In this document: positions 28,733-45,415 of the stretch, piece by piece
How positions within the stretch are numbered: position 1 is the first letter of the stretch
How the letters are laid out: each line of letters begins with the position of its first letter
Virus record (IMG/VR): IMGVR_UViG_3300013121_000019
Span: 68,375-132,374 of that record
DNA length: 64,000 nucleotides
Source: a virus
Lineage: Duplodnaviria; Caudoviricetes
Direction: 5' to 3' (one strand)
Program-made: the position numbers and the translations under genes
Notes under the pieces: generated by a model
Seen by the model: only the letters and a program-made list of their open reading frames with translations
The model's database searches: none
Told to the model about the DNA's origin: nothing

Positions 28733-29641
28733 TCAGATCTTCACAGTCGCGCCTGGGACGCTGTTTCCCGAGGATTCTCCCACGCACGTTGTTGCTGTGG
28801 GAAGGACACGTCCGTTGAGAGAAGGCGGTCGAATACCCGGTCTATTGGACGATCCAGCACGAATCACCACTTGCTGCGTGGGGTCTAGTGGATGCGGAAC
28901 TGCCGCACTACAGCTGCCAGTCATCAACGAATCGCCCACATGGCTGCTGATGTGCACAGCCGGATCCGCACCCTGCTGGTATGGGAATCCAGGAGTACGT
29001 CGACGGTTGGTCAGTCCGTTGACCGACATCCCCATCCCGCTGACAACCTTCGACGCCAGCGGCGAGATCTTGTCGGTACGCTGGAACTGAAATGGAGATG
29101 TCACGGTGCAGCAGTACCACTCACGGGCATTATCGTTCGCCACGAGTGAGCCAGCCTGGGTCACGGGGCTGATCCCCATGTTGCGGCCGATCTCGAAGAA
29201 GCCTTGACGGATCAACACGTCGCGCAGGGCCCACAGGTGCTCGAACACGACCCATGCGACGTACTCGGCCTCGAGATCAACCGTGGAGCAACAGTTGATC
29301 GCCATGATGCCTGGCAGCAGGATCGACTTCTTCTTGGCTCCGGTCTCGAAGTTGAAGCTCTGCATGTCGTCGTAGCCAAGATGGCTAGACTGCACGTGGC
29401 TCCTGTTGAACGAGATGGCGGGGCGCTTGCCTACCACCACGGAGTCGATCGGGTTGTCGTCGGAGATGAATATCTCGCCGGTGTTGCCGGGCTCCCAATG
29501 GAGCATCCCGGGCTCCGAGTACCAGAACAGTAGCTGGACGAAGCGAACGTAGACCGACCGCAGATGCTGCAGCGGGTTGTACTTCCAGGAGCTATCGGGA
29601 AAGCCGTCCTGGGGTTCGGTTGTTCTTGAGTTCGTAGGCAC
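28733..29641 (-). CDS. putative tail terminator/completion protein
   Basis: Position just upstream of sheath; RPAISFNR..INCCS..EAEYVAWVV pattern. Confidence 0.55.
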   Translation of the reverse strand: MPTNSRTTEPQDGFPDSSWKYNPLQHLRSVYVRFVQLLFWYSEPGMLHWEPGNTGEIFISDDNPIDSVVVGKRPAISFNRSHVQSSHLGYDDMQSFNFETGAKKKSILLPGIMAINCCSTVDLEAEYVAWVVFEHLWALRDVLIRQGFFEIGRNMGISPVTQAGSLVANDNAREWYCCTVTSPFQFQRTDKISPLASKVVSGMGMSVNGLTNRRRTPGFPYQQGADPAVHISSHVGDSLMTGSCSAAVPHPLDPTQQVVIRAGSSNRPGIRPPSLNGRVLPTATTCVGESSGNSVPGATVKI

Positions 29642-29990
29642 GGCGCATCTCCTCGTCAGACACCTCTTGGCGCTTGCCAGCCAGGTAGCCTGCTCCCCAC
29701 GCTAGCGCGGGACCAACGAACATCGGAAGCTGGCCCAGCGGCATGTGCGGATCGACAGCCAGTGCGGCAGCCCTGCCTCCCATGTAGCCGAGCCCGATGC
29801 CGAGCCCGCTGATCGCGGCCATCTGGATGGCCCGACGGTACGGGTGAGGGGCCTCGGCTTTGGGCGGTTGCGTGTTCACCACAGCGGCCATCTTCTGCAG
29901 ATTACCGCGCAGAAGATTGCGACTGTGCGCGGCCTTCACCAGTGCATCCGCGTGCTCAGGCAGGTACTCGTAGATCGACGGCAGCGTCAT
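29592..29990 (-). CDS. small K-x-A motif protein with Gly-rich TM segments
   Basis: LVKAA, LQKMAA; ISGLGIGLGYMGG and VGPALAWGAGYLAG. Confidence 0.7.
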   Translation of the reverse strand: MTLPSIYEYLPEHADALVKAAHSRNLLRGNLQKMAAVVNTQPPKAEAPHPYRRAIQMAAISGLGIGLGYMGGRAAALAVDPHMPLGQLPMFVGPALAWGAGYLAGKRQEVSDEEMRRAYELKNNRTPGRLSR

Positions 29991-30874
29991 CGAGGATTCC
30001 TGTAGTTGGCGAAGATGTTCTGCAGGTGCAGCTTCTCGAACGACTCGAGGTTCGTGGAGTGCGCGTAGTTGCCAGCCGGGCTTGCCCAGAGATTCCGCAG
30101 TGACTCGTCCATGTTGAGCGGAATCGAGTACTCGACATCTGACTTCGGGATCTCGTGAAGCTCGAGCTCCTGGTGCAGGATGGCCCTACCCTTCTCGGTG
30201 GCCGACACCTTGACCACTCGCCACCGACGGTTCTCGAACTCCACCAGCACGTCGTCCGGCTTGAGGGAGGGGAAGTACCCGCAGCGGGCCGTCGTGTTGG
30301 CCTGGCTGGTGACGGCCAGCGACGATGTCTGCTTGGTCTTCGCAGAAGGATCGATCTGCACCCAGACTTCGATCGGACGCCAGTACCCCCGGATGAACCC
30401 GGTCTGATAGCAGAGCCTGCAGCCAGACCGGGTGATCTTGTTGAGCGTCGTCGACCAACAGCTGCAACGAGGGCCGAACGTCCGGATCGGCAGCACCCAG
30501 CACCGACGGCCCACGAACTCCGCCATCAACAGTTGAATGTGACGGCGGATTTCGAGGGCCATGATGTCAGGATCGGCCTCGTGGGCGACGGGGCCGAAAA
30601 GCGTCTGCTCGTTCGAACGTTTGTCGGTGAGGCGCAGCTGGTAGTAGAGCTGACGCCACTGGTATCCAGCCGGCAGACGGTTGTCGACGAAGAGGTACTG
30701 ATCCTCGAAAGGAGGGGCGAGCGGTTCGAAAGGACCCAGTGGTGACTCGCTCCGCATCATCTGGAACGTGTAGTCGAGGACGTCGCCATGGCCTTCGACG
30801 CGCCAAGAGATCTCGTTGAAGTCGATATCGAGCGACCTCACCCGCAGATCTAGGATGTCGATCGAGCGTGCCAT
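29987..30874 (-). CDS. putative neck/head-closure protein
   Basis: Ig-like N-terminus; RCSCW..GCRLCYQTGFIRGY Zn motif; PSLKPDDVLVE..RWRV. Confidence 0.55.
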   Translation of the reverse strand: MARSIDILDLRVRSLDIDFNEISWRVEGHGDVLDYTFQMMRSESPLGPFEPLAPPFEDQYLFVDNRLPAGYQWRQLYYQLRLTDKRSNEQTLFGPVAHEADPDIMALEIRRHIQLLMAEFVGRRCWVLPIRTFGPRCSCWSTTLNKITRSGCRLCYQTGFIRGYWRPIEVWVQIDPSAKTKQTSSLAVTSQANTTARCGYFPSLKPDDVLVEFENRRWRVVKVSATEKGRAILHQELELHEIPKSDVEYSIPLNMDESLRNLWASPAGNYAHSTNLESFEKLHLQNIFANYRNPR

Positions 30875-32991
30875 CACGACGCTGCACTGGCTGCCTCGGC
30901 GGCCGGCTTCTCCTTGGACTCGAGCAGCTTCTTGATGCTGCTCCAGCCGTGCTCTGCGTCGCCCGAGAGCGACTCCATCGGGCTGTGGTGGGCCATCGCC
31001 TTGGCGGCCGCAGATGCACCGAGACCGAGTGCGCCACCGGCGGTAGCTCCGCGACCGACGGCCTCGATGATGCCCTCTTCTTGGCCGGTCATCGGATCAC
31101 GTTCACGGTTCATGGCCCGCCAGAGACCACCAGCCGCGGCACCAGCCGCACCGGCCGCCGCGTGCGGATGATGCTTGGCGAACTCACGAACCATGTTCAT
31201 GTCGAGCGCCAGCTTCTGAGGCGGCGTTGTGGCGATCTGGTTGGCCGACGGAACAGCCGGCGTAGCGGGTGTTGCTGCAGGTTGCTGGGCGCCCTGGCCC
31301 ATGTTGCCGACAGCGGTTGTGGCCGCTCCAGCGGCGAACGCCTTCACCCGCTCACCCTTGGGGGCCTGGAACGCGTTGATCGCCCCACCCAATGCGGCCT
31401 GCTGAACCTTCGGGTTCCTCATCAGACCCGATGCTGCCGCCAGCAGGTTTGCCTGCTTGGGCATCTTGGTCATGATGCGGCCCGCGGCAGCAGCCATTTT
31501 GTCGAGCATCTGCCGTTCTGTGGACATGCGGAAGTCGTTGCGAGCCAGCTCCCTGCCCATCTGGTCGGCGAAGTCATCGATGGAGGCGGTCTTCGTGTAG
31601 CTGCGCACGAAGTTTTGCGGGTACTGAGTAAACCTGCTGTTGGACATCTCTGCTGCCGGACCAGCGCCAAGTCGAAACTTGTTGTCCATGTTGGCGTTGA
31701 TCGCCAATGCCGTGGAGTCCTGTGAATCGACCGGTCGCGGACCGCCGATAGCTTGCGCCGACCTGCCGAAGAGCTTGTTGTCCACACCCGCCGCAAACGA
31801 CGGGACAGTGCCCCGGCCGCGTGTCGCCGGCACAGACGCATCTCGCATCGTCGATCGAACCCTACGCAGCACCTCATTGGAGCCCGCACTGGTGCTGGCG
31901 ATCCCAGAGATGGCCGAACGGTCCGCCGGACGCAGCCTGCTGACCACGTCCCTCGAAGTGATGTTGCCGGCGGCGATCTGGCGCTGCCACGCGGTGCTGG
32001 CCATCTTGTCGAGCATCTGCCGTTCTGTGGACATGCGGAAGTCGTTGCGAGCCAGCTCCCTGCCCATCTGGTCGGCGAAGTCATCGATGGATGCAACCTT
32101 CCGCGGCGGTCCCTGCGTGAACCTGACGTTGGGGCGGTCCGCATCCTGGACTGGCGGAACGTAGCCACCATAACCGGCCAGTCTCCGGTCCATGTTCTGA
32201 TTGATCCGTAGGGCAGTAGCGTCTTGCGGATCCCTGGGCGCCACGGACGATGGTTGTCTTGCCACGTTCGCCCACCTACCACCAGCCACGGCACCGCTAG
32301 TGGGCTGGGTGAACGCAGCGAACGACTTACGCGAGATGGGGTTCCCCACTGTAGAACCCCACACCGGTACACGCGTAGAGGCCATGCTGCCGCGCACAGC
32401 ACGTGTTACTTCCGGCGCACTTCTTGACTTGAAGTTTATCCAGTCGGTAAGGCCACCATGCCCAGATACGCGGTCAACCACCTCTTTGGACGTGATGTTG
32501 CCGGCGGCGATCTGGCGCTGCCACGCGGTGCTGGCCATCTTGCCGGCGCCCACCGCCCCCATCTCCGGCTGATCCGCGGCCGGCTGGGTGGTGGCGGCCT
32601 GACCTGCGGCCGCAGCCTCCGGGGTCGCGGCTTCACCACCGGCTTCCTGCTGGACCCGCTGGAGATCCAGCATCTTCTTCTTCAAGCGGATCTGCTCGAT
32701 GCGCTGCCAGTAATCCGCCATCGGAGGCGGCTGCTGCATGTCGTGCTGGTTCTTCTCCATCTCGAGCGCGATCTCTTCGTTCTCGAGCGCGATGGCCGAC
32801 TGCAGCAGCGGGGTACCGGTGAACCGCTCGAGCCAGCTCTCACCACGGTCCTCCGCGACCTTCATCAGATCGCCGGACGCTAGCTTCCGCAGTGCCTCCG
32901 CCGGGAGCCCTCGCATCTGCTCGGCGAGCTTCTGTTGACGCTCCTGAGCAGCGTGCTTCTCGACTTCCATCTGTAGGAATAGATCGATCAT
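30874..32991 (-). CDS. K-x-A-rich putative internal head protein with tandem duplication
   Basis: 705 aa; about ten K-x-A sites; duplicated module; C-terminal Gly zippers. Confidence 0.75.
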   Translation of the reverse strand: MIDLFLQMEVEKHAAQERQQKLAEQMRGLPAEALRKLASGDLMKVAEDRGESWLERFTGTPLLQSAIALENEEIALEMEKNQHDMQQPPPMADYWQRIEQIRLKKKMLDLQRVQQEAGGEAATPEAAAAGQAATTQPAADQPEMGAVGAGKMASTAWQRQIAAGNITSKEVVDRVSGHGGLTDWINFKSRSAPEVTRAVRGSMASTRVPVWGSTVGNPISRKSFAAFTQPTSGAVAGGRWANVARQPSSVAPRDPQDATALRINQNMDRRLAGYGGYVPPVQDADRPNVRFTQGPPRKVASIDDFADQMGRELARNDFRMSTERQMLDKMASTAWQRQIAAGNITSRDVVSRLRPADRSAISGIASTSAGSNEVLRRVRSTMRDASVPATRGRGTVPSFAAGVDNKLFGRSAQAIGGPRPVDSQDSTALAINANMDNKFRLGAGPAAEMSNSRFTQYPQNFVRSYTKTASIDDFADQMGRELARNDFRMSTERQMLDKMAAAAGRIMTKMPKQANLLAAASGLMRNPKVQQAALGGAINAFQAPKGERVKAFAAGAATTAVGNMGQGAQQPAATPATPAVPSANQIATTPPQKLALDMNMVREFAKHHPHAAAGAAGAAAGGLWRAMNRERDPMTGQEEGIIEAVGRGATAGGALGLGASAAAKAMAHHSPMESLSGDAEHGWSSIKKLLESKEKPAAEAASAAS
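31493..32542. repeat. intragenic direct repeats (92 bp x2 and 51 bp x2)
   Basis: 31493-31584 vs 32000-32091 (1 mismatch); 31958-32008 vs 32492-32542 (identical). Confidence 0.9.
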
Positions 32992-32992
32992 C

Positions 32993-35050
32993 TCAGTGAC
33001 TCCCGCCGTGGATGTTGCGAAGGTTCTGATACAGCTCGGTCGACTGCTCGCCGATGCGCTTGACTCGATCGTGGATCTCCGGACCCACCATCATGCCGGT
33101 CGTGAACCCACCGATTGCGCCCGAGATGGCGGAGCCGGTCGGATGATCAACAGCTACCTGACGGAACGCCATGCGGGCCTTCGCCTGTGCGAGCTCCATG
33201 GCGGTTCCGAACGTGCCCTCGGTGTCGTGGTGTTGCTGCGCCTCGGCGAGCCGCTGCTTGGCAGGCTCGACGCCGCCGATCGAACTGGCCATCGACGCAC
33301 CAGCGCCGAGGGCAGCACCGGCGGCACCGTACGGTAGCCGGGCCATCAGCTTCTGGCCGACCTGCTCCCAGTACGGGTTGGCCTGCTTGATCCGGTGGGC
33401 CGCCTGCTTGATCGTCACGGTCGTGCCGCCCTGTCCGTGCGGCTTCTTGTCGCCCTGGCCAGGGGCCGGCTGAGGACCGGGGGGCTGTTGCCCAGCCGGC
33501 CCCTGGGGGGCGTCTTGCGCGGCCGGCTGACCCTGGGGGGCCTGCTGCGGTTGCTGACCTTGCTGCGGGTCGCCCTGGGCCGGCTGGAGCTGGCCCGGGG
33601 CCTGGGCACCCATCGCCCCGGGAGCCGCCTGCCCGAGGGCAGCCTGGCCGGGCGGGGGCGCGTTGGCGTTGGCCGCCTGAAGCTGCTGCTCGATGCCGGC
33701 GGCCGGGTCCTGGGCCGCCAGGTCCATCAGGGCCTGCCGGTGCTGCTGGAGGGCGATCCGCATGTTGGCCGCCAGCTGCGTCGACTGCAGGGCCTGCTGC
33801 TGGGCGTTCATGCTGGCCATCGTGGCTTGGCTGGCCGCCTGGTTTGCCATCTGGGCGGTCAGCTGCATCTGCTGGATCTGCTGATCCGACATCTGCTGCT
33901 GCTGCTGGGCCTGCTCGAGCTGCTGTTGCTGCATCTGCGCCTGCTGCGTGAGCTGCTCGGACTTCTGGCGGAAGAACTGCGTCTCGTTCTGCAGCTGCTG
34001 AACAGTGCCCTGCTGCTCCTGCTGGAACAGCGCCCCCATGTCGGGGTTCTCGGGATCGATCGGCGCCTCCGGGGCAGCACCGGTGGCCATGATGTCGTCG
34101 GCGCGCTTGCGGATCAGCATCGACGCCGTCTTGACCGACACGTGCATCTGCTCGCGTGTCTGCACCGGACCGTTCAGCAGCTGTGCCAGCTTCTTCGGGT
34201 CGTTGGAGCGGTGGTTCGTGACGATCCGGTCTCCCTGCCCGTAGTGCTCGAACGACATCGCGGTCTTCTGCTGACCAGGAGCCGACGGAGAAGGCTGCCC
34301 GTTCGGCAGCATCTTGGGCTTCGGCGTCTGCAGAGTCTGGAACACGGCGCGCGAGCGCTGGCTCATCGGCCCGTTGGCAGGATCGTGCGAGACGCCGGGC
34401 GTCGTGATGAAGCTGGGGTGCATCGCGCGCTTCATCGCCGACAGCTTCTGCTGGACCGTGATGGTCGACGGCTGCGTGGCCTGGACAGACGGCATCATCT
34501 GGATGAGCTCGTCCAGGTGATGCTGCTCGTCCTGCATGTACTGCTCGACCGTGAAGCGGGTCGGGTCACTCTCCTCGAGCATCCCGTGGAGCTGGCGCCA
34601 GTCGTCGATCCCTTCCTTCTCGATGTTGATCATCGTCTGAATGATCTCGTGCGGATCACTCGACGGAGGCGGTGCCGGGATGTCGGGCAGGTTCAGCGGA
34701 CCACCGAGCACCGACATGCGGCGCATGATGAACTCCGCGTGGTCGGTCTCCTGGTCCGCGTGGTCGTCGAACTGCTCGGAGATCGCGAAGTGGCTCAGGT
34801 CCTTGAGGGCCTCCGCGTAGGCCCGGTAGGCGTAGATCGAGCGGAACTCGCCCTGAACGATCTTGGCCATCAGGTTCAGCACGTCCTGAGGTACCTGCCC
34901 GCCGGGTGCCGCCGGGTCCTGCAGCATCGCCGGGGTCTGCTGGGCGGCAGGCGCACCGGGGACCGGCACAGCCTCGGCGTGCTTCAGACGGTAGAAGAAG
35001 CTTGCGGCCTCCTCGAGCGGAATCTCCACAGCCAGAAGTCGTTCGAACAT
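32993..35050 (-). CDS. bacterioferritin-like domain fused to Gln-rich K-x-A protein
   Basis: GEFRSIYAY..QETDHAEFIMRRMSVLGGP..IEKEGI..DEQHHLDEL di-iron four-helix pattern. Confidence 0.8.
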   Translation of the reverse strand: MFERLLAVEIPLEEAASFFYRLKHAEAVPVPGAPAAQQTPAMLQDPAAPGGQVPQDVLNLMAKIVQGEFRSIYAYRAYAEALKDLSHFAISEQFDDHADQETDHAEFIMRRMSVLGGPLNLPDIPAPPPSSDPHEIIQTMINIEKEGIDDWRQLHGMLEESDPTRFTVEQYMQDEQHHLDELIQMMPSVQATQPSTITVQQKLSAMKRAMHPSFITTPGVSHDPANGPMSQRSRAVFQTLQTPKPKMLPNGQPSPSAPGQQKTAMSFEHYGQGDRIVTNHRSNDPKKLAQLLNGPVQTREQMHVSVKTASMLIRKRADDIMATGAAPEAPIDPENPDMGALFQQEQQGTVQQLQNETQFFRQKSEQLTQQAQMQQQQLEQAQQQQQMSDQQIQQMQLTAQMANQAASQATMASMNAQQQALQSTQLAANMRIALQQHRQALMDLAAQDPAAGIEQQLQAANANAPPPGQAALGQAAPGAMGAQAPGQLQPAQGDPQQGQQPQQAPQGQPAAQDAPQGPAGQQPPGPQPAPGQGDKKPHGQGGTTVTIKQAAHRIKQANPYWEQVGQKLMARLPYGAAGAALGAGASMASSIGGVEPAKQRLAEAQQHHDTEGTFGTAMELAQAKARMAFRQVAVDHPTGSAISGAIGGFTTGMMVGPEIHDRVKRIGEQSTELYQNLRNIHGGSH

Positions 35051-35059
35051 GCTCGTCTC

Positions 35060-35839
35060 CTACTCGTCGATGACCAGGACCACGGTGTTGTCGATCGTGC
35101 TCGACATGAACTCCAGCGTAGGGCTAGAGCCCCCCGACTTGGAAATGACGGTACCGGAAGCTGCACCGCTGAAACCAAGCAGTGCGTTGGCCTCGTTGGT
35201 TGCAGCGCCCGTCGTTGTCCCTGTCGCCAGACCCAGCAGAGCGGCAGCGTTGCCGCCAACGACCTGCACGGTCTTCGAGTCGCCGACATCAGTGGTCGCG
35301 ATCGACAGGTAGGTGGATCCATAGAGGCTCGCCACGCCCGTGGGGTCGATCACGGCGTTGATCTGGTCCAGCACGTCCTGACGGTTGGTCGGTGCGGCGA
35401 ACGTGACGCCCTTGGCCACGCCGTTGATCTTCAGGTTCAGTACCTTGCCGTCCAGCGTGCCGCCGGCGCCGAACACGAGCTCGTTGACGTCGACGGTTCC
35501 GATCCGCACGGCTGCTCCGCCAGCGCTGGGAGCCAACATCTTCGTGGCGCTTGTCGGAGTCCGCTTGATGAAGCCGATACGCCCACCGAACGACGTCACC
35601 TTCAGGGTGGGCTCAGCAGCCTCGATCTGGCTCTTGATGTCGGTGTACAGCAGGTAGCTGCCGTCCCGGGTCGTCGTCGCGACCGCTACGAACGTGTGGC
35701 TGAACGGCGGCTCTTCGAACGACACCGTCTTTCCGACCAGCGGCAGGCCCACATTGCCCTTGATCGGGCTGCCGAGGATGCCACCGCGCAGAAAGTGAGT
35801 AGCCTCCTCGAGACCAGTGATCTTGATCGTCTTCAGCAT
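35060..35839 (-). CDS. virion structural protein sharing the sheath insertion repeat
   Basis: LNLKING..VTFAAP..VLDQINAVI..YLSIAT..AALLGLATG matches the sheath repeats. Confidence 0.7.
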   Translation of the reverse strand: MLKTIKITGLEEATHFLRGGILGSPIKGNVGLPLVGKTVSFEEPPFSHTFVAVATTTRDGSYLLYTDIKSQIEAAEPTLKVTSFGGRIGFIKRTPTSATKMLAPSAGGAAVRIGTVDVNELVFGAGGTLDGKVLNLKINGVAKGVTFAAPTNRQDVLDQINAVIDPTGVASLYGSTYLSIATTDVGDSKTVQVVGGNAAALLGLATGTTTGAATNEANALLGFSGAASGTVISKSGGSSPTLEFMSSTIDNTVVLVIDE

Positions 35840-35868
35840 GTCGTTGTCCTACGGGTAGAAGAAGCCGC

Positions 35869-36369
35869 TCAGAGGCCGATGTAGGTCGCGTTGGTTGCCC
35901 AGTATTCCGAGTGAACGCCAGTGTCGGAGCCGCCGATCATTGCGGAGATGTTGAGAGCGATCTTGACCCGCTGCTTCATCTGCTCTGTCTTGTTGGCGAA
36001 CAGCTTGATGAAGTTCATCAGCAACGGTGTCTTGTCGTTGGTACCGAGGTTGAGCCCGCCGTCCGAGTAGTTGACGTGGTTGCGCGTCTGCAGCATCGCC
36101 ACCGACTCGATGAGGTTGACCACCGCCATCCGTCGCAGGAGCGCAGCCTGGTGCAGCGACAGAAGGTCTTCTACGGAGTAGCTGGTGATTGGCGGTGTGC
36201 CGTTGAAGTCCTCCACCGCGTCCAGGATGGCCCAGGCGATCTGCCGGTCACTCGACTCTTCTCCACGCAGTAGCCTGTTGAGCTCTGCGAAGTCGCGCGT
36301 GTAGTAGCGGATCTCCTGAACCAGCATTCGAAACGGCTGGCTGGTGCCCGGCAATCCATCGAGGCTCAT
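35869..36369 (-). CDS. putative head-tail connector/neck protein
   Basis: AGGAGG RBS; helical protein with YSDGGLNL motif; downstream of capsid. Confidence 0.55.
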   Translation of the reverse strand: MSLDGLPGTSQPFRMLVQEIRYYTRDFAELNRLLRGEESSDRQIAWAILDAVEDFNGTPPITSYSVEDLLSLHQAALLRRMAVVNLIESVAMLQTRNHVNYSDGGLNLGTNDKTPLLMNFIKLFANKTEQMKQRVKIALNISAMIGGSDTGVHSEYWATNATYIGL

Positions 36370-36641
36370 CGCGTCCTCCTTCTTGTTGGAAGTGGCTGCT
36401 CGTTCTCCAGCGCAACCCTCTGCACGCTTGCCCGCTTGGCCACGACGTACGCATGGGGTGGGCGTTCCACCGCGAGAGCACCGCACTGCACCAGCGGCGC
36501 CATCGCGGCCACGTTCGGGCTGGCTACGTCCATCGATGCGCCGGGCTCGAGCACCACGCCGCCGATGGAGAACGTGTGGTTCACGAGGTGACGTTCCTCG
36601 AGAGCCGCCGTAGCAACATCCGTGAGATTCCAGATGATCAT
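36366..36641 (-). CDS. hypothetical structural protein
   Basis: ATGA coupled on both sides. Confidence 0.65.
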   Translation of the reverse strand: MIIWNLTDVATAALEERHLVNHTFSIGGVVLEPGASMDVASPNVAAMAPLVQCGALAVERPPHAYVVAKRASVQRVALENEQPLPTRRRTR

Positions 36642-37183
36642 CGACGGTTCTTCTTGGACTTCTTGCCGAAGTTGATCGGATCGTGGGGGAAGCGCTGCAC
36701 TAGCGCGTCGGGGATGTCGGTACCGATCGGGGCGGACGGGCCGTCAGGAAGCGCAGGTGCCGGCGGCACATCGTCCAGGGCTGCCTGCGCCGCCTCATCC
36801 GACAGCTCCAGCGGGATGCCCTCGACGAACTGCGGCATCGGGATGCCGATGGGTGTGTCGTTGGCCAGTGTATCGATCCGCTCCTTCGGCGGGGGCTGAT
36901 GCGGCAACGTCGGTGTCGCCGTGAAGGTCGTCAAGTCGACGAGACCGCCATCCATCGTGCGGATCTCGAGGGATCCGTTGGCCACGAGAGCCCTGTACTG
37001 CTCGATGTGCTGCTCGAGCTGGTGCCGGTAGACGACACGCGGGCGCGCGCGCAGAACACGGTCGCCAGTAGGGGTACGCGTTCGTGTGTTGTGTCGCGGA
37101 TTCAGTCGACGCTGCCCGCGGTTGTGCCTGCCGTGCGTGGTGTTGTGGATGAGGTACTTGGTGCTTTCGGTGGCCGAGTTCAT
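36638..37183 (-). CDS. hypothetical protein
   Basis: AGGAG RBS before ATG 37183. Confidence 0.65.
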   Translation of the reverse strand: MNSATESTKYLIHNTTHGRHNRGQRRLNPRHNTRTRTPTGDRVLRARPRVVYRHQLEQHIEQYRALVANGSLEIRTMDGGLVDLTTFTATPTLPHQPPPKERIDTLANDTPIGIPMPQFVEGIPLELSDEAAQAALDDVPPAPALPDGPSAPIGTDIPDALVQRFPHDPINFGKKSKKNRR

Positions 37184-37262
37184 GATCGTCTCCTGAAACG
37201 CATGGGGCGCCGGCGCCGTATGGCACCAGCGCCCCAATGCTGCCACCGCTAGAGGCTGGGCT

Positions 37263-38390
37263 CTAGTAGGTGCTGACGTCCGGGAACTTGAGACCCGAAT
37301 CGACGCGGTTGTTGACCGCACCGAGCTGATCCTCCGGCTTCGGAATCACCTGGTCGATGAGGCCGTCGGCGTCGAGCGAGGAAGCGTCACCCGAGTAGAG
37401 CTCGAGCTTGCGGGCTGCTGCGACGTTGACGATCGCCAGCCCGACGTCCTTCCACGCCTGGAACATGATCAGATTGGCGATCTTGTCGATGTAGAACTTC
37501 ACATCGTTCAAGATGTAGGACTTGGCGAAGAACTGCGGCGCCGTGAACGCGTACACGTTGCCAGGGCGCAGGATGTCGGTCTTGATCGTCCGGATGAACG
37601 GACGACCAAGCAGCGTCTGGTACTTGTAGCCCTCGACGGTTGTCTCCGACTGGATCTTCGAGCCGAAGTCCTCGACGGTCCAGCTGAGGATGTCGTCGAA
37701 GTCCGACTCCGTGAAGAGCAGGCGCTCGCACCGCAGGCGGTTGCCGTCGAGCAGCTTGAAAAGCTGCGTGAGGTCCGGACGCTGCATCGGGAACGGGTTG
37801 GCCGACGGAGCGCCCAGCGAGGCACGCGCCATCTCACCCTTGATGACCGAGAACTCGATCGGGCCGCCCGCCTGGAGCGACGTGTTGTTGAGGGCTGTGG
37901 CCGCGCCGTTGGCCTCCTCCTGGAGCGCCTGAACCGCAGCCTCGACGTGCAGAAGGGCCTCACGGTCCTTGATCTCCTGCATGTCCTTCACCGAGTTGTC
38001 CTCGATGATCTTCGTGATCGGCATGTCGCCGTACGCCTGGAGCTCCTGCTCGTGCTTCTCGAACTTCTGGCTCGAGATCGTGAAGAAGCCGACCGGCATG
38101 CGGGGCGCCCGGATCATGTTGACTTCCGGCTGCCCACGGAAGTCGAGGGTCATCGCGCGGCTCTGCGGCTCGAGCGACACGATCTTGACGAGCGTGTCGG
38201 TCTCGGTCGAGACCTGGCAGTCGTTGCGCGTCACGCGCTCCGGCGGGACGAGCTTGTCGAAGAAGCTGACCTCACGAAGACGATCGCGGATCCAGCTTCC
38301 ACCGTACTCGTTCAGCTTGTCACGCCCCTCCTGGGTCGCGACCTTTTGCTGAAACATCTCGTTCATCAGCTGTGCCTGGGACATGTCCAT
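37263..38390 (-). CDS. major capsid protein (HK97 fold, probable)
   Basis: 375 aa, strong codon bias, AGGAG RBS, downstream of protease/scaffold/decoration genes; IRDRLRE..LVPP..IEDNSVKDMQEIKD pattern. Confidence 0.75.
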   Translation of the reverse strand: MDMSQAQLMNEMFQQKVATQEGRDKLNEYGGSWIRDRLREVSFFDKLVPPERVTRNDCQVSTETDTLVKIVSLEPQSRAMTLDFRGQPEVNMIRAPRMPVGFFTISSQKFEKHEQELQAYGDMPITKIIEDNSVKDMQEIKDREALLHVEAAVQALQEEANGAATALNNTSLQAGGPIEFSVIKGEMARASLGAPSANPFPMQRPDLTQLFKLLDGNRLRCERLLFTESDFDDILSWTVEDFGSKIQSETTVEGYKYQTLLGRPFIRTIKTDILRPGNVYAFTAPQFFAKSYILNDVKFYIDKIANLIMFQAWKDVGLAIVNVAAARKLELYSGDASSLDADGLIDQVIPKPEDQLGAVNNRVDSGLKFPDVSTY

Positions 38391-38417
38391 GACGTTCTCC
38401 TTGCTCCTTGTCGCCGA

Positions 38418-38924
38418 CTACTTCGTCCAGGCGTACTTGAAGCGCAGCTTCTGGCCGTTCTTCGAGGGCTTCTTGGTGACGATGCCGACGACGGGCTCCG
38501 TCGACGCGGTCTTGACGAGACCGGAGAACTTCCGACCGCCGAACGAGATGACCGCGACCGAGAGCGTGTCACCGTAGTTGAAGCCACCCGCGCCGTTGAG
38601 ATCCGAGTCGAAGATCCGGGTGTTGGCCTCGTACTCGCCCATGTAGAAGACCGCAGCCTTCTTGATCGACTGGACGTCGTAGCGGCCGCGCTCGACGTGC
38701 AGGGGGTAGCTGCGGATCGTTGCGGCAGTGCCTGCCGCCTGGCTGATGTCCACAGCGCGGAGCATCTTGCCGTCGTCGTTGATCACGACCCACTCGCCAT
38801 CGACGTACACGGCCGCGTTCAGCGGCTCGAGCAGCGTCTTGTCGACCGGTGTGAACGAACGCCGCTGCACGAGCTCGACCGGCGAGATCGGCTCGAAGTT
38901 GACCTTGAACAGCGTCGAAGCCAT
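38418..38924 (-). CDS. putative capsid decoration/cement protein
   Basis: Small beta-rich gene directly upstream of MCP; VVGIVTK C-terminal motif. Confidence 0.55.
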   Translation of the reverse strand: MASTLFKVNFEPISPVELVQRRSFTPVDKTLLEPLNAAVYVDGEWVVINDDGKMLRAVDISQAAGTAATIRSYPLHVERGRYDVQSIKKAAVFYMGEYEANTRIFDSDLNGAGGFNYGDTLSVAVISFGGRKFSGLVKTASTEPVVGIVTKKPSKNGQKLRFKYAWTK

Positions 38925-38966
38925 TGCTTTCTCTCCTTGTGACGAAGCCGTTGTTCGACGGCTGAA

Positions 38967-39323
38967 CTAGATCCGACCCAGTAGGAGCTGCTCGAATGCC
39001 GAACCACCGGCACCCTCACTGCTCGTTTTGTCTTCGAGGGAACCGAGCTTCTGGAACATGCCCGGGAAGTTGTGGAAGGCGTCTTCCACGCGTTGAAGTT
39101 GCCCCTCTTCGGCAACCTTCTGTAGTTCGTCCTGCAGGACATCGAGCGACTTGTCGGTCATGCCGCGCTCGTGGATCTGGCTGGCGAGCTTCATGACCTT
39201 CTCACGCTGCTGGTACTGCGCGACCTTCTGCTCGAGCTCTTCGATCTGACCGAGCTGTCGTAGGAGAGCTGCGGACGCCTCCTTCAGTACCTGCGCGGCC
39301 TTCTCCTGGCTGATCTTGTGCAT
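38967..39323 (-). CDS. putative scaffold-like coiled-coil protein
   Basis: 118 aa, helical, several K-x-A sites. Confidence 0.6.
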   Translation of the reverse strand: MHKISQEKAAQVLKEASAALLRQLGQIEELEQKVAQYQQREKVMKLASQIHERGMTDKSLDVLQDELQKVAEEGQLQRVEDAFHNFPGMFQKLGSLEDKTSSEGAGGSAFEQLLLGRI

Positions 39324-39332
39324 GCCCTCTCC

Positions 39333-40232
39333 TCACGCCCTGACCGGCCGCATCTGTGCGGTCGGGGGCATCTGACGGTTGATCGCGGCGATCAGACTGG
39401 CGCGCTTCTCACGCATCTCCGGAGACGCATCGCTGCGAGCGCCATCCTCGGCGATCTTCATCAGCAGCGCACGACCCGCCGCGACCTTGACGTCGCTGGC
39501 GAGCTTCGCGCCGGCTGCGATCGTGCTGTCGAACGCGTGGCTGAGCGTCGAGTCGTGCACGCCAGACATCGCGGGCTCCGTGAGGTAGCGCGCGAGCTCC
39601 GCCTTCTGGGGTGCCAGAGCCTGGTCCTTCTTGTAGTTGATCGCCGCCTCATTGGACCCGATGAGTCCGCTGTTGCCGCCGAAGCCACCGATCGACTGCG
39701 CCGAGTCCATGCCGGTCGGTGCGCCGAGGTTGGGCCGGCTGGAGAGGTTGCCATCTTCGCCGTGGGCAGCCGCGTCATCACCGGCCGTCTTCAGACCGAG
39801 CCGCGCCATGTTGCGCTGCGCGAGCTTCATCGGGCTGACGCTCTGCTCCATGTTGTCCGCCAGAAGCGTGGGGCTCGCCGAGCCCGTGGCGCTCTGCAGG
39901 CCAGGGTTCTGCGGCTGGTGCACCGCCCGACCCATCGAGGTCGGGTAGGGCGCGACGTTCTGCGTGGGCTCCACCTCGAGTGCACCAGGGCCCGTACCGG
40001 GAGCAGGCATCTCCGCCACCTTGTCGAGGTTGTCGGAGAGGAACAGCAGTGCGTCACTGAGGCCGCCGATGTACTTCGCCTCGGCTGTCTTGTCGGAGCA
40101 GTCGCCCTTGCACGACTCCTTGCCGCACTTGCTGCACTTCTTCTTGTCGTCCTTGCTGGCCTCTTCGGCGAGCTTGGCCTGGCTGACACCCGCCAGCGCA
40201 GTCTTCACGAGATCCTGCAGTGTCGTCCTCAT
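39333..40232 (-). CDS. K-x-A-rich head/core protein
   Basis: About ten K-x-A sites; CxxC-x3-C-x3-C cluster. Confidence 0.7.
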   Translation of the reverse strand: MRTTLQDLVKTALAGVSQAKLAEEASKDDKKKCSKCGKESCKGDCSDKTAEAKYIGGLSDALLFLSDNLDKVAEMPAPGTGPGALEVEPTQNVAPYPTSMGRAVHQPQNPGLQSATGSASPTLLADNMEQSVSPMKLAQRNMARLGLKTAGDDAAAHGEDGNLSSRPNLGAPTGMDSAQSIGGFGGNSGLIGSNEAAINYKKDQALAPQKAELARYLTEPAMSGVHDSTLSHAFDSTIAAGAKLASDVKVAAGRALLMKIAEDGARSDASPEMREKRASLIAAINRQMPPTAQMRPVRA

Positions 40233-40241
40233 CTTCAGCTC

Positions 40242-40517
40242 CTAGACGGTGTTCCCGAGCGGCATCGCCGACGGGTTTCCGAACGGGTTGGTGGCCGGGG
40301 CCGGCGTTCCAGTGTTGACCTTCGTGGGCCCCACCGAGGCCGGCGGCATCGGCCCTTTCGCCGTGCCCTTCATCGCCGCCGGTGCCGTCTGCGTGACGAT
40401 CGAGGTCGGAACAGGTGCAGACGATGCTGTCTCGGCGACACCCGAACCGACCGCATCTGCCGCGATCTTGTTGAGCTCGTCGTAGAACGCTCCGAACATC
40501 GTCTGCACCCGGTCCAT
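40242..40517 (-). CDS. small protein with FYDELNKIA leader
   Basis: 91 aa; leader shared with the SNF2 N-terminus. Confidence 0.65.
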   Translation of the reverse strand: MDRVQTMFGAFYDELNKIAADAVGSGVAETASSAPVPTSIVTQTAPAAMKGTAKGPMPPASVGPTKVNTGTPAPATNPFGNPSAMPLGNTV

Positions 40518-40519
40518 CG

Positions 40520-41545: not shown

Positions 41546-41620
41546 GGTGATGATCCTCGATGTCTTCTGGTGGTCTCGTGGTCCCTGAGGGGAGTCCCCT
41601 CTCCACGTCGGGCGTTGGCC

Positions 41621-43201
41621 CTAGTTGATGTGGTCCCAGTAGGACTCGATCAGGTAACTGACCGAGAGAGGGGTGAAGATGTCGACGTCGCTGGCGAGCT
41701 TGAGCAAGTCCCCATTGAGGTTTGTCTCTGCTGCTTGGGCGACGAGGTTCATCAATCCTTCCCGGTATCCGTTGTACGCAGCGCTCATCTTACGCAGTTC
41801 GTTGGAACCAAGGGAAGAGGAGGTGCTGTTTCGGCGGGACGGGTTGAGGACGATGATGGTGATGCGCTTCTCGATGTGGGGCCCGAAAGCGGAACGCTCC
41901 TCGATCATCGGAGATAGAAGTTGCGCCAGTAGCGGGCTGAAATGCCCGAGCGACATCGGCATCGGAATTGACTCCGATGTGCGCCCAAACACCTCACGCC
42001 GATGGTCTAGCCGATCTGCCAGATCGCGTCGACCAGTTCCGATCAGCATCAGCCGCTGGAACTCGCGGGGCTTCAGCACCATCCCGAGGCCGGCGGTGGT
42101 CGACAACGCCTTCTCAGGACCGCTGTGGGCCAGACGGTCGATCAGCTCATCCGGGATGTCCCGTTCGGACCCGGTGAGCCGCTGAACCGCCTGTGGTGCC
42201 CACTGGGGCGGCGTGTGCTTCTTGATCTCACCGGCTTTGATCTTGGCCTGCTTGACCGGCGCGGCGGTCTTCACCTGGTCTTCCTCCACGTACCCCATCT
42301 GTTCAGCGCGTTCAGCAGAACCGAACGTGTAGAGGCGCGTCCCCTCGTAGGCGATCTTCAGCATCGTCTTGGCTGTGCGATCGGCCCCGATGAACACGAA
42401 CGAGATATCGAAGAACGCCGGGTAGGTGTTGACGACGCCGATCTTCCGGCCATCTGGCAACACATGGTTCATCCGCCGAAGAGTGTCTTCGCAGTACTCT
42501 CGGCGGGTAATCGCCAAACCAGGGATCCCGGTGCCGTTGCGCTTCTTCAGCTCCTTGTGGAACTCGAGAACCGCCTCACCGGGATACTTGTGGCGGCGAC
42601 TGTCGAAGGTGTTGACGGCCTTCCAGTAGAGAGGCCAATCGGTGTGGATCGAGCACAGATCGAATGGCACCTTTGCGCCCATCGACGTATCTGGAAATTC
42701 ACCATTGTGAATCTTGTCCCAGACGCTCACTCCGCCGAACTCGACGCACTTCTGTCGATCGATGCGGACGACGAGCTCCACTCGGTGCATCCGCGGGTTC
42801 CACGCGGCTAGCTCGACCTCACCGAAGGCTCTCGACGGATCCTTGTTGACGTGGTGCGCGTACGGGTGCGCTCGGTAGAACGTCGGGTACCCGTACGGCC
42901 AACTCTCTGCGCGGGTACGGTCGTAGACCGGTACGCCGCGCCAGTCCGCCGGTACATGCAGCAGAGCATCTTCGGGCCAGATGTCTCCGTTGACGTTCTG
43001 GCCCCAGTACTCGCTCGACCCCATGGCGGAGACCAGCACGTACTGACTGCCCTCGCGCGGTCGCAACTGGTCGATGTAGCGGGTCACCTCATCCAGCAGG
43101 TGCGGAGCCGCGGTCTTCTCGAACACCGCGTCGGAACGGGTGAACAGCGGGAAGACCGTCGGCTGCTCCGGCAGGTTCGGCAGTAGTGCGACCTTCAGCA
43201 T
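41621..43201 (-). CDS. prohead maturation protease (clan SH, HK97/herpes-like)
   Basis: NVNGDIW, YAHHVNKD (His), DTSMGAKV (Ser), FFDISFVFIGAD. Confidence 0.75.
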   Translation of the reverse strand: MLKVALLPNLPEQPTVFPLFTRSDAVFEKTAAPHLLDEVTRYIDQLRPREGSQYVLVSAMGSSEYWGQNVNGDIWPEDALLHVPADWRGVPVYDRTRAESWPYGYPTFYRAHPYAHHVNKDPSRAFGEVELAAWNPRMHRVELVVRIDRQKCVEFGGVSVWDKIHNGEFPDTSMGAKVPFDLCSIHTDWPLYWKAVNTFDSRRHKYPGEAVLEFHKELKKRNGTGIPGLAITRREYCEDTLRRMNHVLPDGRKIGVVNTYPAFFDISFVFIGADRTAKTMLKIAYEGTRLYTFGSAERAEQMGYVEEDQVKTAAPVKQAKIKAGEIKKHTPPQWAPQAVQRLTGSERDIPDELIDRLAHSGPEKALSTTAGLGMVLKPREFQRLMLIGTGRRDLADRLDHRREVFGRTSESIPMPMSLGHFSPLLAQLLSPMIEERSAFGPHIEKRITIIVLNPSRRNSTSSSLGSNELRKMSAAYNGYREGLMNLVAQAAETNLNGDLLKLASDVDIFTPLSVSYLIESYWDHIN

Positions 43202-45368: not shown

Positions 45369-45415
45369 GGATCTACGTTCTCCTCGCATCAAGAGGTACC
45401 ATGGTGTCGATAAGA

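What the first reader, a model, noticed from the sequence alone, without database searches (positions are those of the whole stretch)
34493..34890. Bacterioferritin-like di-iron domain embedded in a putative head cargo polyprotein
The E..ExxH..E..ExxH ligand set appears complete (GEFRS, ETDH, EKEG, EQHH) with RMSVLGGP after helix 2. The domain is bracketed by KHA and KLS/KTA sites and followed by a Gln-rich region and Gly zippers. Inference: an iron-binding ferroxidase packaged in the capsid or injected, protecting DNA from Fenton chemistry or manipulating host iron. It echoes ferritin-like cargo in HK97-fold encapsulins.
Basis: partly seen in the sequence, partly recalled or inferred. Interest (0 to 1): 0.7.

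Follow-up and report, generated by a model that had tools for sequence, protein, structure and literature searches.

The report
Ferritin-type domain on phage structural-module protein
A large uncultured phage carries a genuine iron-binding ferritin-type domain as a removable front module of a long protein encoded between its capsid and presumed tail genes; the domain is probably cut out and carried inside the virus head, but no virion measurement exists to show it.

Summary
Minus-strand ORF 32993-35050 (685 aa) has a real ferritin-like four-helix bundle at aa 55-187 (Pfam PF00210, E 7e-16). The AlphaFold2 model has pLDDT 81-97 there, and its best fold matches are bacterioferritins. All six di-iron ligands and Tyr75 are present.

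It is not a true bacterioferritin: it has no haem Met and no Cys. By profile its closest solved relative is the Dps-like protein PA4880.

The gene has a fixed place in a conserved module of roughly 160-185 kb phages, downstream of a T4 gp21-like prohead protease and the major capsid protein.

K-x-A motifs flank the domain but avoid it. They also sit at conserved N-terminal positions of the capsid protein and the protease.

Two results here go beyond the earlier notes retrieved from this scan:
- Syntenic orthologues in close relatives lack the ferritin domain but keep the leader and the body, so the domain is a passenger cassette.
- About a third of the family has lost two of the six ligands.

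Packaging into the head is plausible but unproven. This scan had already noted the same family on other DNA (e1-5634750, e1-5878945, e1-5347416).

The parts
32993..35050 (-). Whole gene: 685-aa ferritin-headed structural-module protein (P0002). GGAG lies 6 nt before the ATG; the stop is followed after 1 nt by the ATG of the next gene.
   Evidence: homologues
34970..35050 (-). N-terminal leader, aa 1-27 (MFERLLAVEIPLEEAASFFYRLKHAEA). The family consensus is F-E-x-x-L..G-I-P-L-x-E-A-A-x-F-F-x-x-L-K-x-A. It ends in the first K-x-A motif (K23-H-A, 34976-34984).
   Evidence: Conserved in ferritin-bearing and ferritin-less orthologues. Helical in the model at moderate confidence. Unique to this ORF in the genome.
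34490..34888 (-). Ferritin-like four-helix bundle, aa 55-187. Helices are at 55-83, 88-115, 133-157 and 164-185. Ligand codons: E68 34847-34849, E101 34748-34750, H104 34739-34741, E144 34619-34621, E175 34526-34528, H178 34517-34519. Tyr75 is at 34826-34828. Thr102 (34745-34747) stands where bacterioferritin has its haem Met.
   Evidence: Pfam; model pLDDT 81-97; Foldseek against PDB, Bfr TM 0.76-0.80; coordinates checked
34061..34489 (-). Disordered linker, aa 188-330, carrying K202-L-S, K207-R-A, K262-T-A, K287-L-A, K307-T-A and K315-R-A. These are candidate protease sites.
33713..34045 (-). Gln-rich long helix, aa 336-446, a probable coiled coil.
   Evidence: Single helix in the model. 31% Q. 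Its profile is found in 149 of 162 family members.
33416..33712 (-). Pro/Gln/Gly/Ala low-complexity spacer, aa 447-545.
32996..33415 (-). Conserved C-terminal helical domain, aa 546-685, with two Gly-zipper segments. It is preceded by K548-Q-A and K555-Q-A.
   Evidence: pLDDT 76-95. Its profile is found in 114 of 162 members and always lies at the C-terminus. Pfam Gly-zipper families PF13488 and PF13441 are precomputed on two ferritin-less orthologues.
41621..43201 (-). Context: probable prohead protease (526 aa). The N-domain has a T4 gp21/assemblin-like fold, followed by a C-terminal extension. The motif F-E-K-[T/V]-A-[A/S] is conserved near its N-terminus.
   Evidence: VIA-align gives Z 7.9, rmsd 3.1 A over 139 residues to 5jbl; Foldseek ranks 1-3 are 5jbl (E 0.065). 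Atlas gives a lead to Peptidase_S78. N-terminal motif. The model is weak (mean pLDDT 56).
37263..38390 (-). Context: major capsid protein (375 aa), the most conserved gene of the module. Motifs F-x-Q-K-L-[G/S] and K-I-A-E are conserved near its N-terminus (QKVAT and KLNE in this window).
   Evidence: The profile hits phage G gp27 capsid protein 6wkk at E 2.4e-5. It is 48-66% identical in 32 loci. N-terminal alignment.
30874..32991 (-). Context: translationally coupled downstream gene (705 aa). It is K-x-A-rich (12 against 5.2 expected), has internal repeats beginning K-M-A-S / K-V-A-S and a Gly/Ala-rich C-terminus, so it is built in the same style.

Best explanation
Architecture (shown). ORF 32993-35050(-) encodes a conserved late, structural-module protein of a lineage of roughly 160-185 kb phages. 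It is a carrier made of four parts: an N-terminal leader, a coiled coil, a low-complexity spacer and a C-terminal Gly-zipper helical domain. In this phage the carrier bears a passenger module right after the leader. That module is a DpsL/bacterioferritin-type di-iron four-helix bundle with all six metal ligands and the catalytic-site Tyr intact.

Mechanism (inferred):
1. The precursor is built into the prohead.
2. The phage's T4 gp21-like prohead protease cuts at K-x-A motifs, plausibly after the Ala. This frees a folded ferritin-like protein of about 20 kDa (roughly aa 26-205) that is too large to leave the shell and so stays with the DNA.
3. In ligand-complete members such as this one, the freed protein binds two Fe(II) and oxidises them with O2 or H2O2. 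That would limit Fenton damage to the packaged genome. If it is ejected with the DNA, it would act on iron or peroxide, or on DNA, in the newly infected cell.
4. The coiled-coil and Gly-zipper parts are the structural or ejection part of the carrier.

Shown: the fold, the ligand set, the domain architecture, the conserved gene position, the motif distribution and the cassette-like presence or absence.
Inferred: incorporation into the head, cleavage, metal chemistry and biological role.
For: Fold and active site:
- PF00210 at E 6.9e-16.
- AlphaFold2 bundle at pLDDT 81-97.
- Foldseek's top PDB hits are E. coli and P. aeruginosa bacterioferritins, TM 0.76-0.80 normalised to the target, 2.0 A over 133 residues for BfrB.
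- The family profile best matches DpsL PA4880 (8w1d, E 9e-7), and the alignment includes the pre-domain tail.
- E68, Y75, E101, H104, E144, E175 and H178 are invariant in 21 relatives. 101 of 155 representatives at 50% identity or less keep all six ligands.

Family size and architecture:
- An exhaustive search with aa 1-190 gives 377 representatives at E <= 1e-3 and 216 at <= 1e-10. The domain is always N-terminal in proteins of 400-1150 aa.
- The same leader / ferritin / coiled coil / C-terminal domain order is found in most members.

Gene position:
- Position is fixed in 24 ferritin-bearing and 8 ferritin-less loci. The order is protease > ... > capsid protein > three small genes > this gene > 705-aa gene > ... 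> 1155-aa gene.
- The capsid protein is supported by 6wkk.
- The protease is supported by T4 gp21 5jbl, Z 7.9.

Motif:
- K-x-A occurs 8 times against 3.0 expected in this protein, with none inside the ferritin domain.
- Across 33 non-redundant relatives it is present before the domain in 29, inside it in 1 and within 80 aa after it in 32.
- In an unbiased scan of all a-x-b patterns in the unalignable post-domain linkers, it is the top non-trivial one (62 against 26.4, z 7.9).
- The same motif is conserved near the N-termini of the capsid protein and the protease. It is enriched in several other head-module proteins.

Precedent:
- gp21-type proteases of giant phages cut many head and ejection proteins at one short motif, mostly removing N-terminal parts (PMC10052503).
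- From my own knowledge, herpesvirus assemblins of the same fold cut at (V/L)-x-A|S.

Cassette:
- 45 of 56 homologues of the body lack the ferritin domain yet keep the leader and a K-x-A-S site.
- Eight syntenic loci whose capsid proteins are 62-66% identical to this one have no ferritin domain in any frame.

Other phages:
- Uncultured phages hold ferritin/Dps folds inside proteins named 'prohead protease' (BFVD hits).
Against: - There is no virion proteome, no cultured relative and no expression data. tblastn of this protein and of P0027 against 50,697 phage records found nothing.
- Cleavage at K-x-A is an inference from motif statistics. The protease model is weak (mean pLDDT 56) and its match to gp21, though the best, is only Z 7.9.
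- The 25-residue leader matches no other ORF of this genome. It is therefore not a shared capsid-targeting tag like the T4 one; only the terminal K-x-A is shared.
- The gene lies after the capsid gene, among probable neck genes, rather than next to the protease and scaffold.
- About 50 of 155 family representatives carry K-E-[A/G]-E-D-H instead of E-E-H-E-E-H. The syntenic relatives L021-L025 also have altered sites. Close relatives do without the domain altogether. Ferroxidase activity is therefore neither universal nor essential.
- The sheath and tube assignments of the downstream genes could not be verified.
Confidence: 0.5

Rival explanations
1. External or neck/tail-associated structural protein. 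The protein is a collar, neck or tail-lumen component, a fibritin-like coiled-coil fibre or an ejection/tape-measure-like protein. It is not processed by the head protease. The ferritin-like domain is displayed outside the head or carried in the tail, for example binding iron at the particle surface.
For: - The gene lies downstream of the capsid gene, among conserved small genes that are probably connector genes, and upstream of the large 1155-aa gene.
- It has a helix of about 110 residues and Gly-zipper segments like those of membrane-active ejection proteins.
- Its leader is specific to this protein, as expected for a docking peptide with one structural partner.
- In T4, the coiled-coil fibritin gene lies between the neck and sheath genes (my own knowledge).
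Against: - K-x-A motifs are enriched, positionally conserved around the domain and shared with the N-termini of the capsid protein and the protease. An unprocessed external protein would not need them.
- More than 40% of the chain is predicted disordered or low-complexity, which is unusual for an exposed fibre.
- No fold or sequence match to any known neck, fibre or tail protein was found.
Confidence: 0.2
2. Non-virion late protein. The protein is made late but stays in the infected cell, possibly at the membrane through its Gly-zipper end. There it lowers free Fe(II) and peroxide during particle assembly, like the stand-alone Dps and ferritin genes already described in phages.
For: - Stand-alone Dps, ferritin and Mn-catalase genes in phages are read this way (PMC8008677; bioRxiv 10.64898/2026.09.14.751636).
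- The ligand set is complete here.
- Nothing shows the protein in particles.
Against: - The domain is always fused to the same long carrier at a fixed place inside the head-tail module and is translationally coupled to its neighbours.
- A metabolic helper would not need the leader, the flanking K-x-A motifs or a 500-aa tail.
- A third of the family has lost ligands yet keeps the fold and the position.
Confidence: 0.15
3. Structural use of the fold rather than catalytic use. Wherever the protein sits, the ferritin-like bundle serves mainly as a stable oligomerising hub (dimer or DpsL-type 12-mer) that bundles the carrier chains. Metal chemistry is incidental or vestigial, even in ligand-complete members.
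For: - About 50 of 155 representatives have replaced E68 by Lys and H104 by Ala or Gly. From my own knowledge, L-chain ferritins show this kind of change. These members still keep the fold, the Pro-rich B-C loop and the helix-D motif.
- The B-C loop (LPDIPAPPPSxDP) is among the best-conserved stretches. In ferritins that loop forms the two-fold interface (my own knowledge).
Against: - All six ligands plus Tyr75 are kept in 101 representatives that are 50% identical or less to one another, which points to selection on the metal site in this clade.
- Ferritin-less orthologues show that the carrier does not need this hub.
- The oligomeric state could not be tested here.
Confidence: 0.15

Closest known systems
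Dps-like proteins (DpsL): P. aeruginosa PA4880 (PDB 8w1d/8w1e; PMC11150526) and Sulfolobus solfataricus DpsL (2clb)
   Same: - The four-helix bundle has a bacterioferritin-type di-iron site buried within one subunit.
- It is the best PDB match of the family profile (E 9e-7). The alignment extends into the tail that precedes helix A.
- There is no fifth helix of the ferritin/Bfr type with confident support.
- NCBIfam's only hits, both weak, are the archaeal 'DPS' (DpsL) models.
   Different: - Scores are far below the NCBIfam cut-offs (18.8 against 158 bits).
- No short helix is predicted in the Pro-rich B-C loop.
- There are no cysteines at all.
- The domain is the front end of a 685-aa phage protein rather than a free subunit of about 180 aa.
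- The 12-mer state and the DNA-nicking activity of PaDpsL are untested here.
Bacterioferritin (E. coli Bfr 1bcf/2vxi; P. aeruginosa BfrB)
   Same: - It is the best structural match (Foldseek TM 0.76-0.80; 2.0 A over 133 residues).
- The ligand pattern E/ExxH/E/ExxH, the Tyr seven residues after the first Glu and the R-x-x-x-L-G-G-P end of helix B are all shared.
   Different: - The haem-binding Met next to the second Glu is Thr102 here and Met in only 7 of 155 relatives.
- No bacterioferritin NCBIfam model matches.
- From my own knowledge, a 500-aa C-terminal extension is hard to fit in a 24-mer, whose C-termini point inward.
T4 internal proteins with a capsid-targeting sequence, and the gp21-type processed head/ejection proteins of SPN3US and phiKZ (PMC10052503)
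   Same: - The logic is shared: an N-terminal leader ends in the head protease's short motif, any passenger can follow it, and the same motif occurs in the capsid protein and the protease.
- A gp21-like protease fold is present in the module.
- Several sites lie in disordered parts of the chain.
   Different: - The motif is K-x-A rather than L/I-x-E or A-x-E.
- The leader is about 25 residues long and specific to this protein family.
- Cleavage and packaging have not been demonstrated.
Ferritin-like cargo of encapsulins (Flp / EncFtn in HK97-fold shells)
   Different: - Encapsulin cargo uses a C-terminal loading peptide, and EncFtn is a two-helix half-ferritin.
- Here the domain is a full four-helix bundle at the N-terminus of a long carrier, inside a DNA-filled phage head if it is packaged at all.
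- No sequence relation to EncFtn was seen.
Stand-alone phage Dps/ferritin genes (Lactobacillus phages, 'Gratiaviridae'; PMC8008677, PMC6669764), and Dps/ferritin domains inside 'prohead protease' proteins of uncultured phages (BFVD hits)
   Same: These are phage-encoded members of the ferritin superfamily. The BFVD fusions show other phages joining such domains to head-assembly proteins.
   Different: - Those are classical Dps with inter-subunit sites, or free ferritins.
- Identity to this domain is 9-17%.
- None has this leader / coiled-coil / Gly-zipper carrier.

Membership tests
Ferritin-like superfamily, Pfam Ferritin PF00210 | Score above the curated gathering threshold across the four-helix bundle | tested here: met
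   58.9 bits against a 24.5 cut-off, aa 61-182; 63.8 bits in the six-frame search
Ferritin-like superfamily | Four-helix-bundle fold superposable on solved ferritins | tested here: met
   pLDDT 81-97. Foldseek on PDB gives TM 0.64-0.80 normalised to the target; 372 of the 500 best matches counted have E <= 1e-3, and all 46 rows shown are ferritins or bacterioferritins.
Ferritin-like superfamily | Intrasubunit di-metal site E / ExxH / E / ExxH | tested here: met
   E68, E101-x-x-H104, E144 and E175-x-x-H178 are present. They are invariant in 21 relatives and complete in 101 of 155 representatives. Metal binding itself was not tested.
Bacterioferritin (Bfr) | Haem-ligand Met adjacent to the second ligand Glu (Met52 in E. 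coli) | tested here: not met
   Thr102 here. In 155 relatives the position is L 64, T 22, Q 19, R 17, A 7, M 7.
Bacterioferritin (Bfr) | Match to NCBI's curated bacterioferritin model | tested here: not met
   The only NCBIfam hits are two DPS/DpsL models, at 18.8 and 13.9 bits.
Bacterioferritin / ferritin | 24-subunit cage with a fifth short helix at the four-fold axis | not testable with these tools
   Only a low-confidence helix at aa 199-208 follows the bundle.
Dps-like protein (DpsL) | Bfr-type ferroxidase site inside a Dps-type subunit with an N-terminal tail | tested here: inconclusive
   The site is met, and the best profile hit is 8w1d, including tail residues 21-40. That tail motif (E-T-G-x-L-E-G-x-F) is degenerate in the window's own protein.
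Dps-like protein (DpsL) | Short helix in the long B-C loop (Dps fold; PMC11150526) | tested here: not met
   The model shows no helix between aa 116 and 132, and the loop is Pro-rich. This is a prediction, not a structure.
Dps-like protein (DpsL) | Curated NCBIfam DPS/DpsL models (PRK13456, Arch_DPS) above the cut-off | tested here: not met
   18.8 against 158 bits, and 13.9 against 250 bits
Dps-like protein (DpsL) | Dodecamer; Fe(II) oxidation with O2/H2O2; DNA nicking | not testable with these tools
   These are biochemical properties reported for PaDpsL.
Classical Dps | Ferroxidase site at the dimer interface, built from two subunits | tested here: not met
   All ligands lie within one bundle in Bfr register.
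Encapsulated ferritin (EncFtn) / encapsulin cargo | Two-helix half-ferritin and a C-terminal cargo-loading peptide | tested here: not met
   The domain is a full four-helix bundle at the N-terminus. No EncFtn family appears among the Pfam or PDB hits.
Prohead-protease-processed head proteins (T4 CTS / SPN3US type) | A gp21/assemblin-fold protease encoded in the head module | tested here: inconclusive
   The best fold match of ORF 41621-43201 is T4 gp21 (Z 7.9, 139 aa, rmsd 3.1; Foldseek E 0.065). The model's mean pLDDT is 56. There is no Pfam hit.
Prohead-protease-processed head proteins (T4 CTS / SPN3US type) | One short motif shared by the capsid protein, the protease and internal proteins, at domain borders | tested here: met
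   K-x-A enrichment and positional conservation
Prohead-protease-processed head proteins (T4 CTS / SPN3US type) | Demonstrated cleavage and presence in virions | not testable with these tools
   No cultured relative exists.

The most novel reading that the evidence does not exclude
This phage lineage runs a natural 'leader plus cut site plus passenger' loading system. A family-specific 25-residue leader ending in K-x-A delivers interchangeable N-terminal passengers into the prohead on a common carrier. The passenger is a DpsL-type di-iron enzyme in most members and another small module in others. The ferritin-like enzyme would then be excised, kept next to the packed DNA and ejected with it. 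It would act in the first minutes of infection as an iron/peroxide scavenger or, like PaDpsL, as a DNA-nicking agent against the host. That would make it a virus-side counterpart of ferritin-loaded encapsulins.
Probability: 0.3. Interest if true: 0.8.

Novelty: new variant of a known kind. Interest (0 to 1): 0.55.

Why it matters
Ferritin-superfamily genes in phages have so far been read as free-standing helpers against oxidative stress. Here the domain is welded to a structural-module protein in at least ~200 sequence clusters of large phages, framed by what look like head-protease sites.

If the domain is really carried in the capsid, three things follow:
- It would be the first iron enzyme known as a phage head component.
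- It would be a functional parallel to ferritin-loaded encapsulins, which share the HK97 shell fold.
- It would be a natural example of modular cargo loading that could be copied for packaging foreign proteins into phage heads.

The family also offers ready-made comparison groups for experiments, because it contains ligand-complete, ligand-reduced and ferritin-less orthologues in otherwise similar phages.

Tried and rejected
I used the search for related loci instead.
- PHROGs and Pfam on ten neighbours (28733-43201): no hit. Pfam on twelve protease orthologues at E <= 5: nothing relevant.
- PDB sequence searches gave no usable hit for the protease (single sequence and profile), the 1155-aa protein, the 247-aa protein and the 296-aa protein profile.
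- tblastn of P0002 and P0027 against 50,697 phage records: no match. The capsid protein finds only three Vibrio phages at 23% identity, annotated as hypothetical.
- First viral-contig scan with the single protein: no relative. The alignment-based scan worked.
- ESM Atlas on aa 190-685: no usable hit.
- Word-index search with the C-terminal domain alone: only the query itself.
- The leader profile against all frames of the genome finds only this ORF, so I rejected the idea that this leader is a general capsid-targeting tag.
- A second ferritin gene in relatives, as an H/L-type pair: none found in five records.
- The myxophage 'MV-2 ferritin' is a 62-kb temperate phage and not this lineage.
- The portal-protein and Snf5 PDB hits of the family profile are Gln-rich low-complexity matches and were disregarded.
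- A literature search for ferritin-like proteins in jumbo-phage virions found nothing relevant.
Full report
**1. What is there**

ORF window:32993-35050(-) encodes 685 residues. A GGAG lies six bases before the ATG. The stop is followed after one base by the start of the next gene, so the gene sits in a translationally coupled operon. The longer plus-strand ORF over the same DNA is a shadow frame of this 62-66% GC sequence.

The window is the last 64 kb of a 132,374-bp IMG/VR virus record, estimated 72% complete. The phage has a fused beta/beta' RNA polymerase and a large terminase. Complete relatives are 160-177 kb.

**2. The ferritin domain is real**

- Pfam Ferritin PF00210 matches aa 61-182 at E 6.9e-16, 58.9 bits against a cut-off of 24.5.
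- With an alignment of 21 relatives, AlphaFold2 gives four helices (55-83, 88-115, 133-157, 164-185) at pLDDT 81-97.
- Foldseek's best PDB matches are E. coli and P. aeruginosa bacterioferritins, TM 0.76-0.80 normalised to the target and 2.0 A over 133 residues.
E68, Y75, E101, H104, E144, E175 and H178 are invariant in those 21 relatives.

**3. Which kind of ferritin**

It is not a bacterioferritin in the strict sense. The residue after the second Glu, the haem ligand Met52 in E. coli Bfr, is Thr102 here and Met in only 7 of 155 relatives. No NCBIfam bacterioferritin model matches. The only NCBIfam hits are the DpsL-type 'DPS' models, far below their cut-offs.

The family profile's best solved relative is the Dps-like protein PA4880 (8w1d, E 9e-7). 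That alignment runs into the tail before helix A. PA4880 is a 12-mer with a Bfr-type site. It oxidises Fe(II) with O2 or H2O2 and nicks DNA in vitro (PMC11150526).

Against DpsL membership, the model shows no short helix in the Pro-rich B-C loop and the protein has no cysteine. I file it as a separate branch of the Bfr/DpsL type of di-iron bundle.

**4. Architecture**

After the bundle come four parts:
- a disordered linker (aa 188-330);
- a single long Gln-rich helix (aa 336-446, 31% Gln);
- a Pro/Gln/Gly/Ala spacer (aa 447-545);
- a confidently predicted helical C-terminal domain (aa 546-685, pLDDT 76-95) with two Gly-zipper segments. Their hydropathy is below that of classical membrane helices.

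Before the bundle lies a 27-residue leader, conserved in the family as F-E-x-x-L..G-I-P-L-x-E-A-A-x-F-F-x-x-L-K-x-A.

**5. The family**

An exhaustive HMMER search of 1.84 billion representatives with aa 1-190 gives 377 proteins at E <= 1e-3, 216 at <= 1e-10 and 86 at <= 1e-30. In the best 150 the domain is always at the N-terminus, and the proteins are mostly 400-1150 residues long. Profiles of the four conserved parts show the same order of leader, ferritin, coiled coil and C-terminal domain in most members.

No record among 50,697 deposited phage genomes holds a relative. I found no paper describing such a fusion. Phage Dps and ferritin genes are known only as free-standing genes.

This scan had noted the same family on other DNA (e1-5634750, e1-5878945, e1-5347416).

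**6. Surroundings**

In 24 viral loci the gene order is conserved. In transcription order on the window's minus strand it runs 44481, 43205, 41621 (526 aa), 40520, 39333, 38967, 38418, 37263 (375 aa), 36638, 35869, 35060, this gene, 30874 (705 aa), 29987, 28733, 25243 (1155 aa), 23671.

- The 375-aa protein is the major capsid protein. It is the most conserved gene, and its profile hits the capsid protein gp27 of phage G (6wkk, E 2.4e-5).
- The N-domain of the 526-aa protein matches the T4 prohead protease gp21 best with two independent aligners. VIA-align gives Z 7.9, 139 residues and 3.1 A, which is 2.2 Z above the next chain, with herpesvirus assemblins further down. Foldseek ranks 1-3 are also gp21, at E 0.065. 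The model is weak (mean pLDDT 56) and Pfam is silent, so I call it a probable protease.
- The 'sheath' and 'tube' labels of the downstream genes could not be verified.

**7. The K-x-A motif**

This protein has eight K-x-A against 3.0 expected (p = 0.005), plus K-L-S. None lies in the ferritin bundle or the coiled coil.

In 33 non-redundant relatives the motif is present before the domain in 29, inside it in one, and within 80 residues after it in 32. In the broader, more diverged set of 155 representatives it is present before the domain in 140, inside it in 43 and within 80 residues after it in 142, so the avoidance of the bundle is weaker there. In an unbiased count of all a-x-b patterns in the unalignable post-domain linkers, K-x-A is the top non-trivial pattern (62 against 26.4, z 7.9).

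The same motif is conserved near the N-terminus of the capsid protein (F-x-Q-K-L-[G/S] and K-I-A-E) and of the protease (F-E-K-[T/V]-A-[A/S]). It is enriched in several other head-module proteins.

This is the pattern seen for the cutting motif of gp21-type proteases in SPN3US, phiKZ and T4. There one short motif marks the capsid protein, the protease and many internal or ejected proteins, often with several cuts in disordered parts (PMC10052503). From my own knowledge, herpesvirus assemblins, which share this protease fold, cut at (V/L)-x-A|S, so a cut after the Ala of K-x-A-[S/A] is chemically plausible. Cleavage itself is not shown.

**8. The domain is a passenger cassette**

A profile of the body without the ferritin part (alignment A4) finds 56 proteins. 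45 of them lack the ferritin domain but keep the same leader and a K-x-A-S site directly after it.

Eight viral loci hold such ferritin-less genes at exactly the same place in the same module. Their capsid proteins are 62-66% identical to this one, as close as those of ferritin-bearing relatives. No ferritin domain is detectable in any frame of those loci.

On a capsid-protein tree the ferritin-less loci form two groups among ferritin-bearing ones. The well-supported branches force only one change, and the direction is not determined.

The conserved unit is therefore the carrier, and the ferritin bundle is an optional front module placed between the leader's K-x-A and the next K-x-A.

**9. The metal site is not universal**

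Of 155 representatives, 101 have E-E-H-E-E-H, and the window's protein is among them. About 50 have K-E-[A/G]-E-D-H, which means they have lost the two terminal ligands of one iron position. E101, E144, H178 and Tyr75 stay almost invariant.

The syntenic relatives L021-L025 also carry altered sites and form one clade. Relatives hold only one such gene, so there is no catalytic/non-catalytic pair.

This resembles the change from H- to L-chain ferritin (my own knowledge). It means the family-wide role cannot depend on full ferroxidase activity, although the clade of this phage clearly conserves the site.

**10. Weighing**

For head incorporation and processing:
- the fixed place in the head-tail module;
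- the motif shared with the capsid protein and the protease;
- the cassette logic of leader, site and passenger;
- the precedent of T4 and giant phages;
- other uncultured phages that join Dps/ferritin folds to proteins named 'prohead protease'.

Against:
- no particle data;
- a leader that is private to this protein;
- a position after the capsid gene, among likely neck genes;
- an unverified protease specificity.

I put the processed, head-carried reading at about one half. A neck, tail or external structural role gets about one fifth. A non-virion late helper gets about 0.15. Separately, I put the chance that the fold serves mainly as an oligomerising hub at about 0.15.

**11. Verdict**

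This is a new architectural variant of a known kind of domain. It was found repeatedly by this scan but, as far as I could search, is not described in the literature.

Noticed in passing
window:24430-25203(-): A 257-aa ORF with an HNH endonuclease domain (PF13392, E 3e-12) sits between the 1155-aa gene and the 247-aa gene. Most relatives lack it at this place and have related copies elsewhere in the module, so it looks like a mobile homing-type insertion.
   Followed up: partly
window:46925-49864(-): The large terminase is unusually long (979 aa). Besides terminase PHROGs, it gives short internal hits to ribonucleotide reductase and PhoH families (aa 422-499 and 749-782). That is the pattern expected from one or two inteins.
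   Followed up: no
window:35060-35839(-) and window:25243-28710(-): The 259-aa protein just upstream of the ferritin gene shares a segment of about 100 residues (37-47% identity) with part of the 1155-aa protein's orthologues in L006, L008, L026 and L031. This indicates a duplicated domain within the module.
   Followed up: no
window:29987-30877(-): This 296-aa protein is strongly conserved (45-57% identity in 14 loci) and has five invariant cysteines (C126, C138, C140, C153, C156 in the window's protein) that may form a zinc-binding cluster. It has no PDB or Pfam match.
   Followed up: partly
window:30874-32991(-): The downstream 705-aa protein has 12 K-x-A against 5.2 expected. It contains two long internal repeats that begin K-M-A-S-T-A-W and K-[V/T]-A-S-I-D-D-F, and it ends in Gly/Ala-rich segments. 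NCBIfam gives a faint hit to the SseD translocon (E 0.019).
   Followed up: partly
window:41621-43201(-), aa 20-35: The probable protease carries a conserved F-E-K-[T/V]-A-[A/S] motif near its own N-terminus in 10 of 12 orthologues. This is consistent with self-processing.
   Followed up: partly
L021-L025 and P0099-P0163 (related phages): A coherent subclass of the ferritin domain has Lys for the first Glu, Ala or Gly for the first His, Asp for the fourth acidic ligand and Gln for Trp151. This looks like an L-ferritin-like loss of one iron position.
   Followed up: yes
window:51606-53645(-), 44481-45428(-), 40520-41545(-), 38967-39323(-): These head-region ORFs show the strongest K-x-A excess in the genome: 12 against 2.9, 9 against 1.9, 9 against 2.9 and 5 against 0.9. 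ORF 40520-41545, directly after the protease, is a scaffold candidate in which only the C-terminal ~75 residues are conserved.
   Followed up: partly
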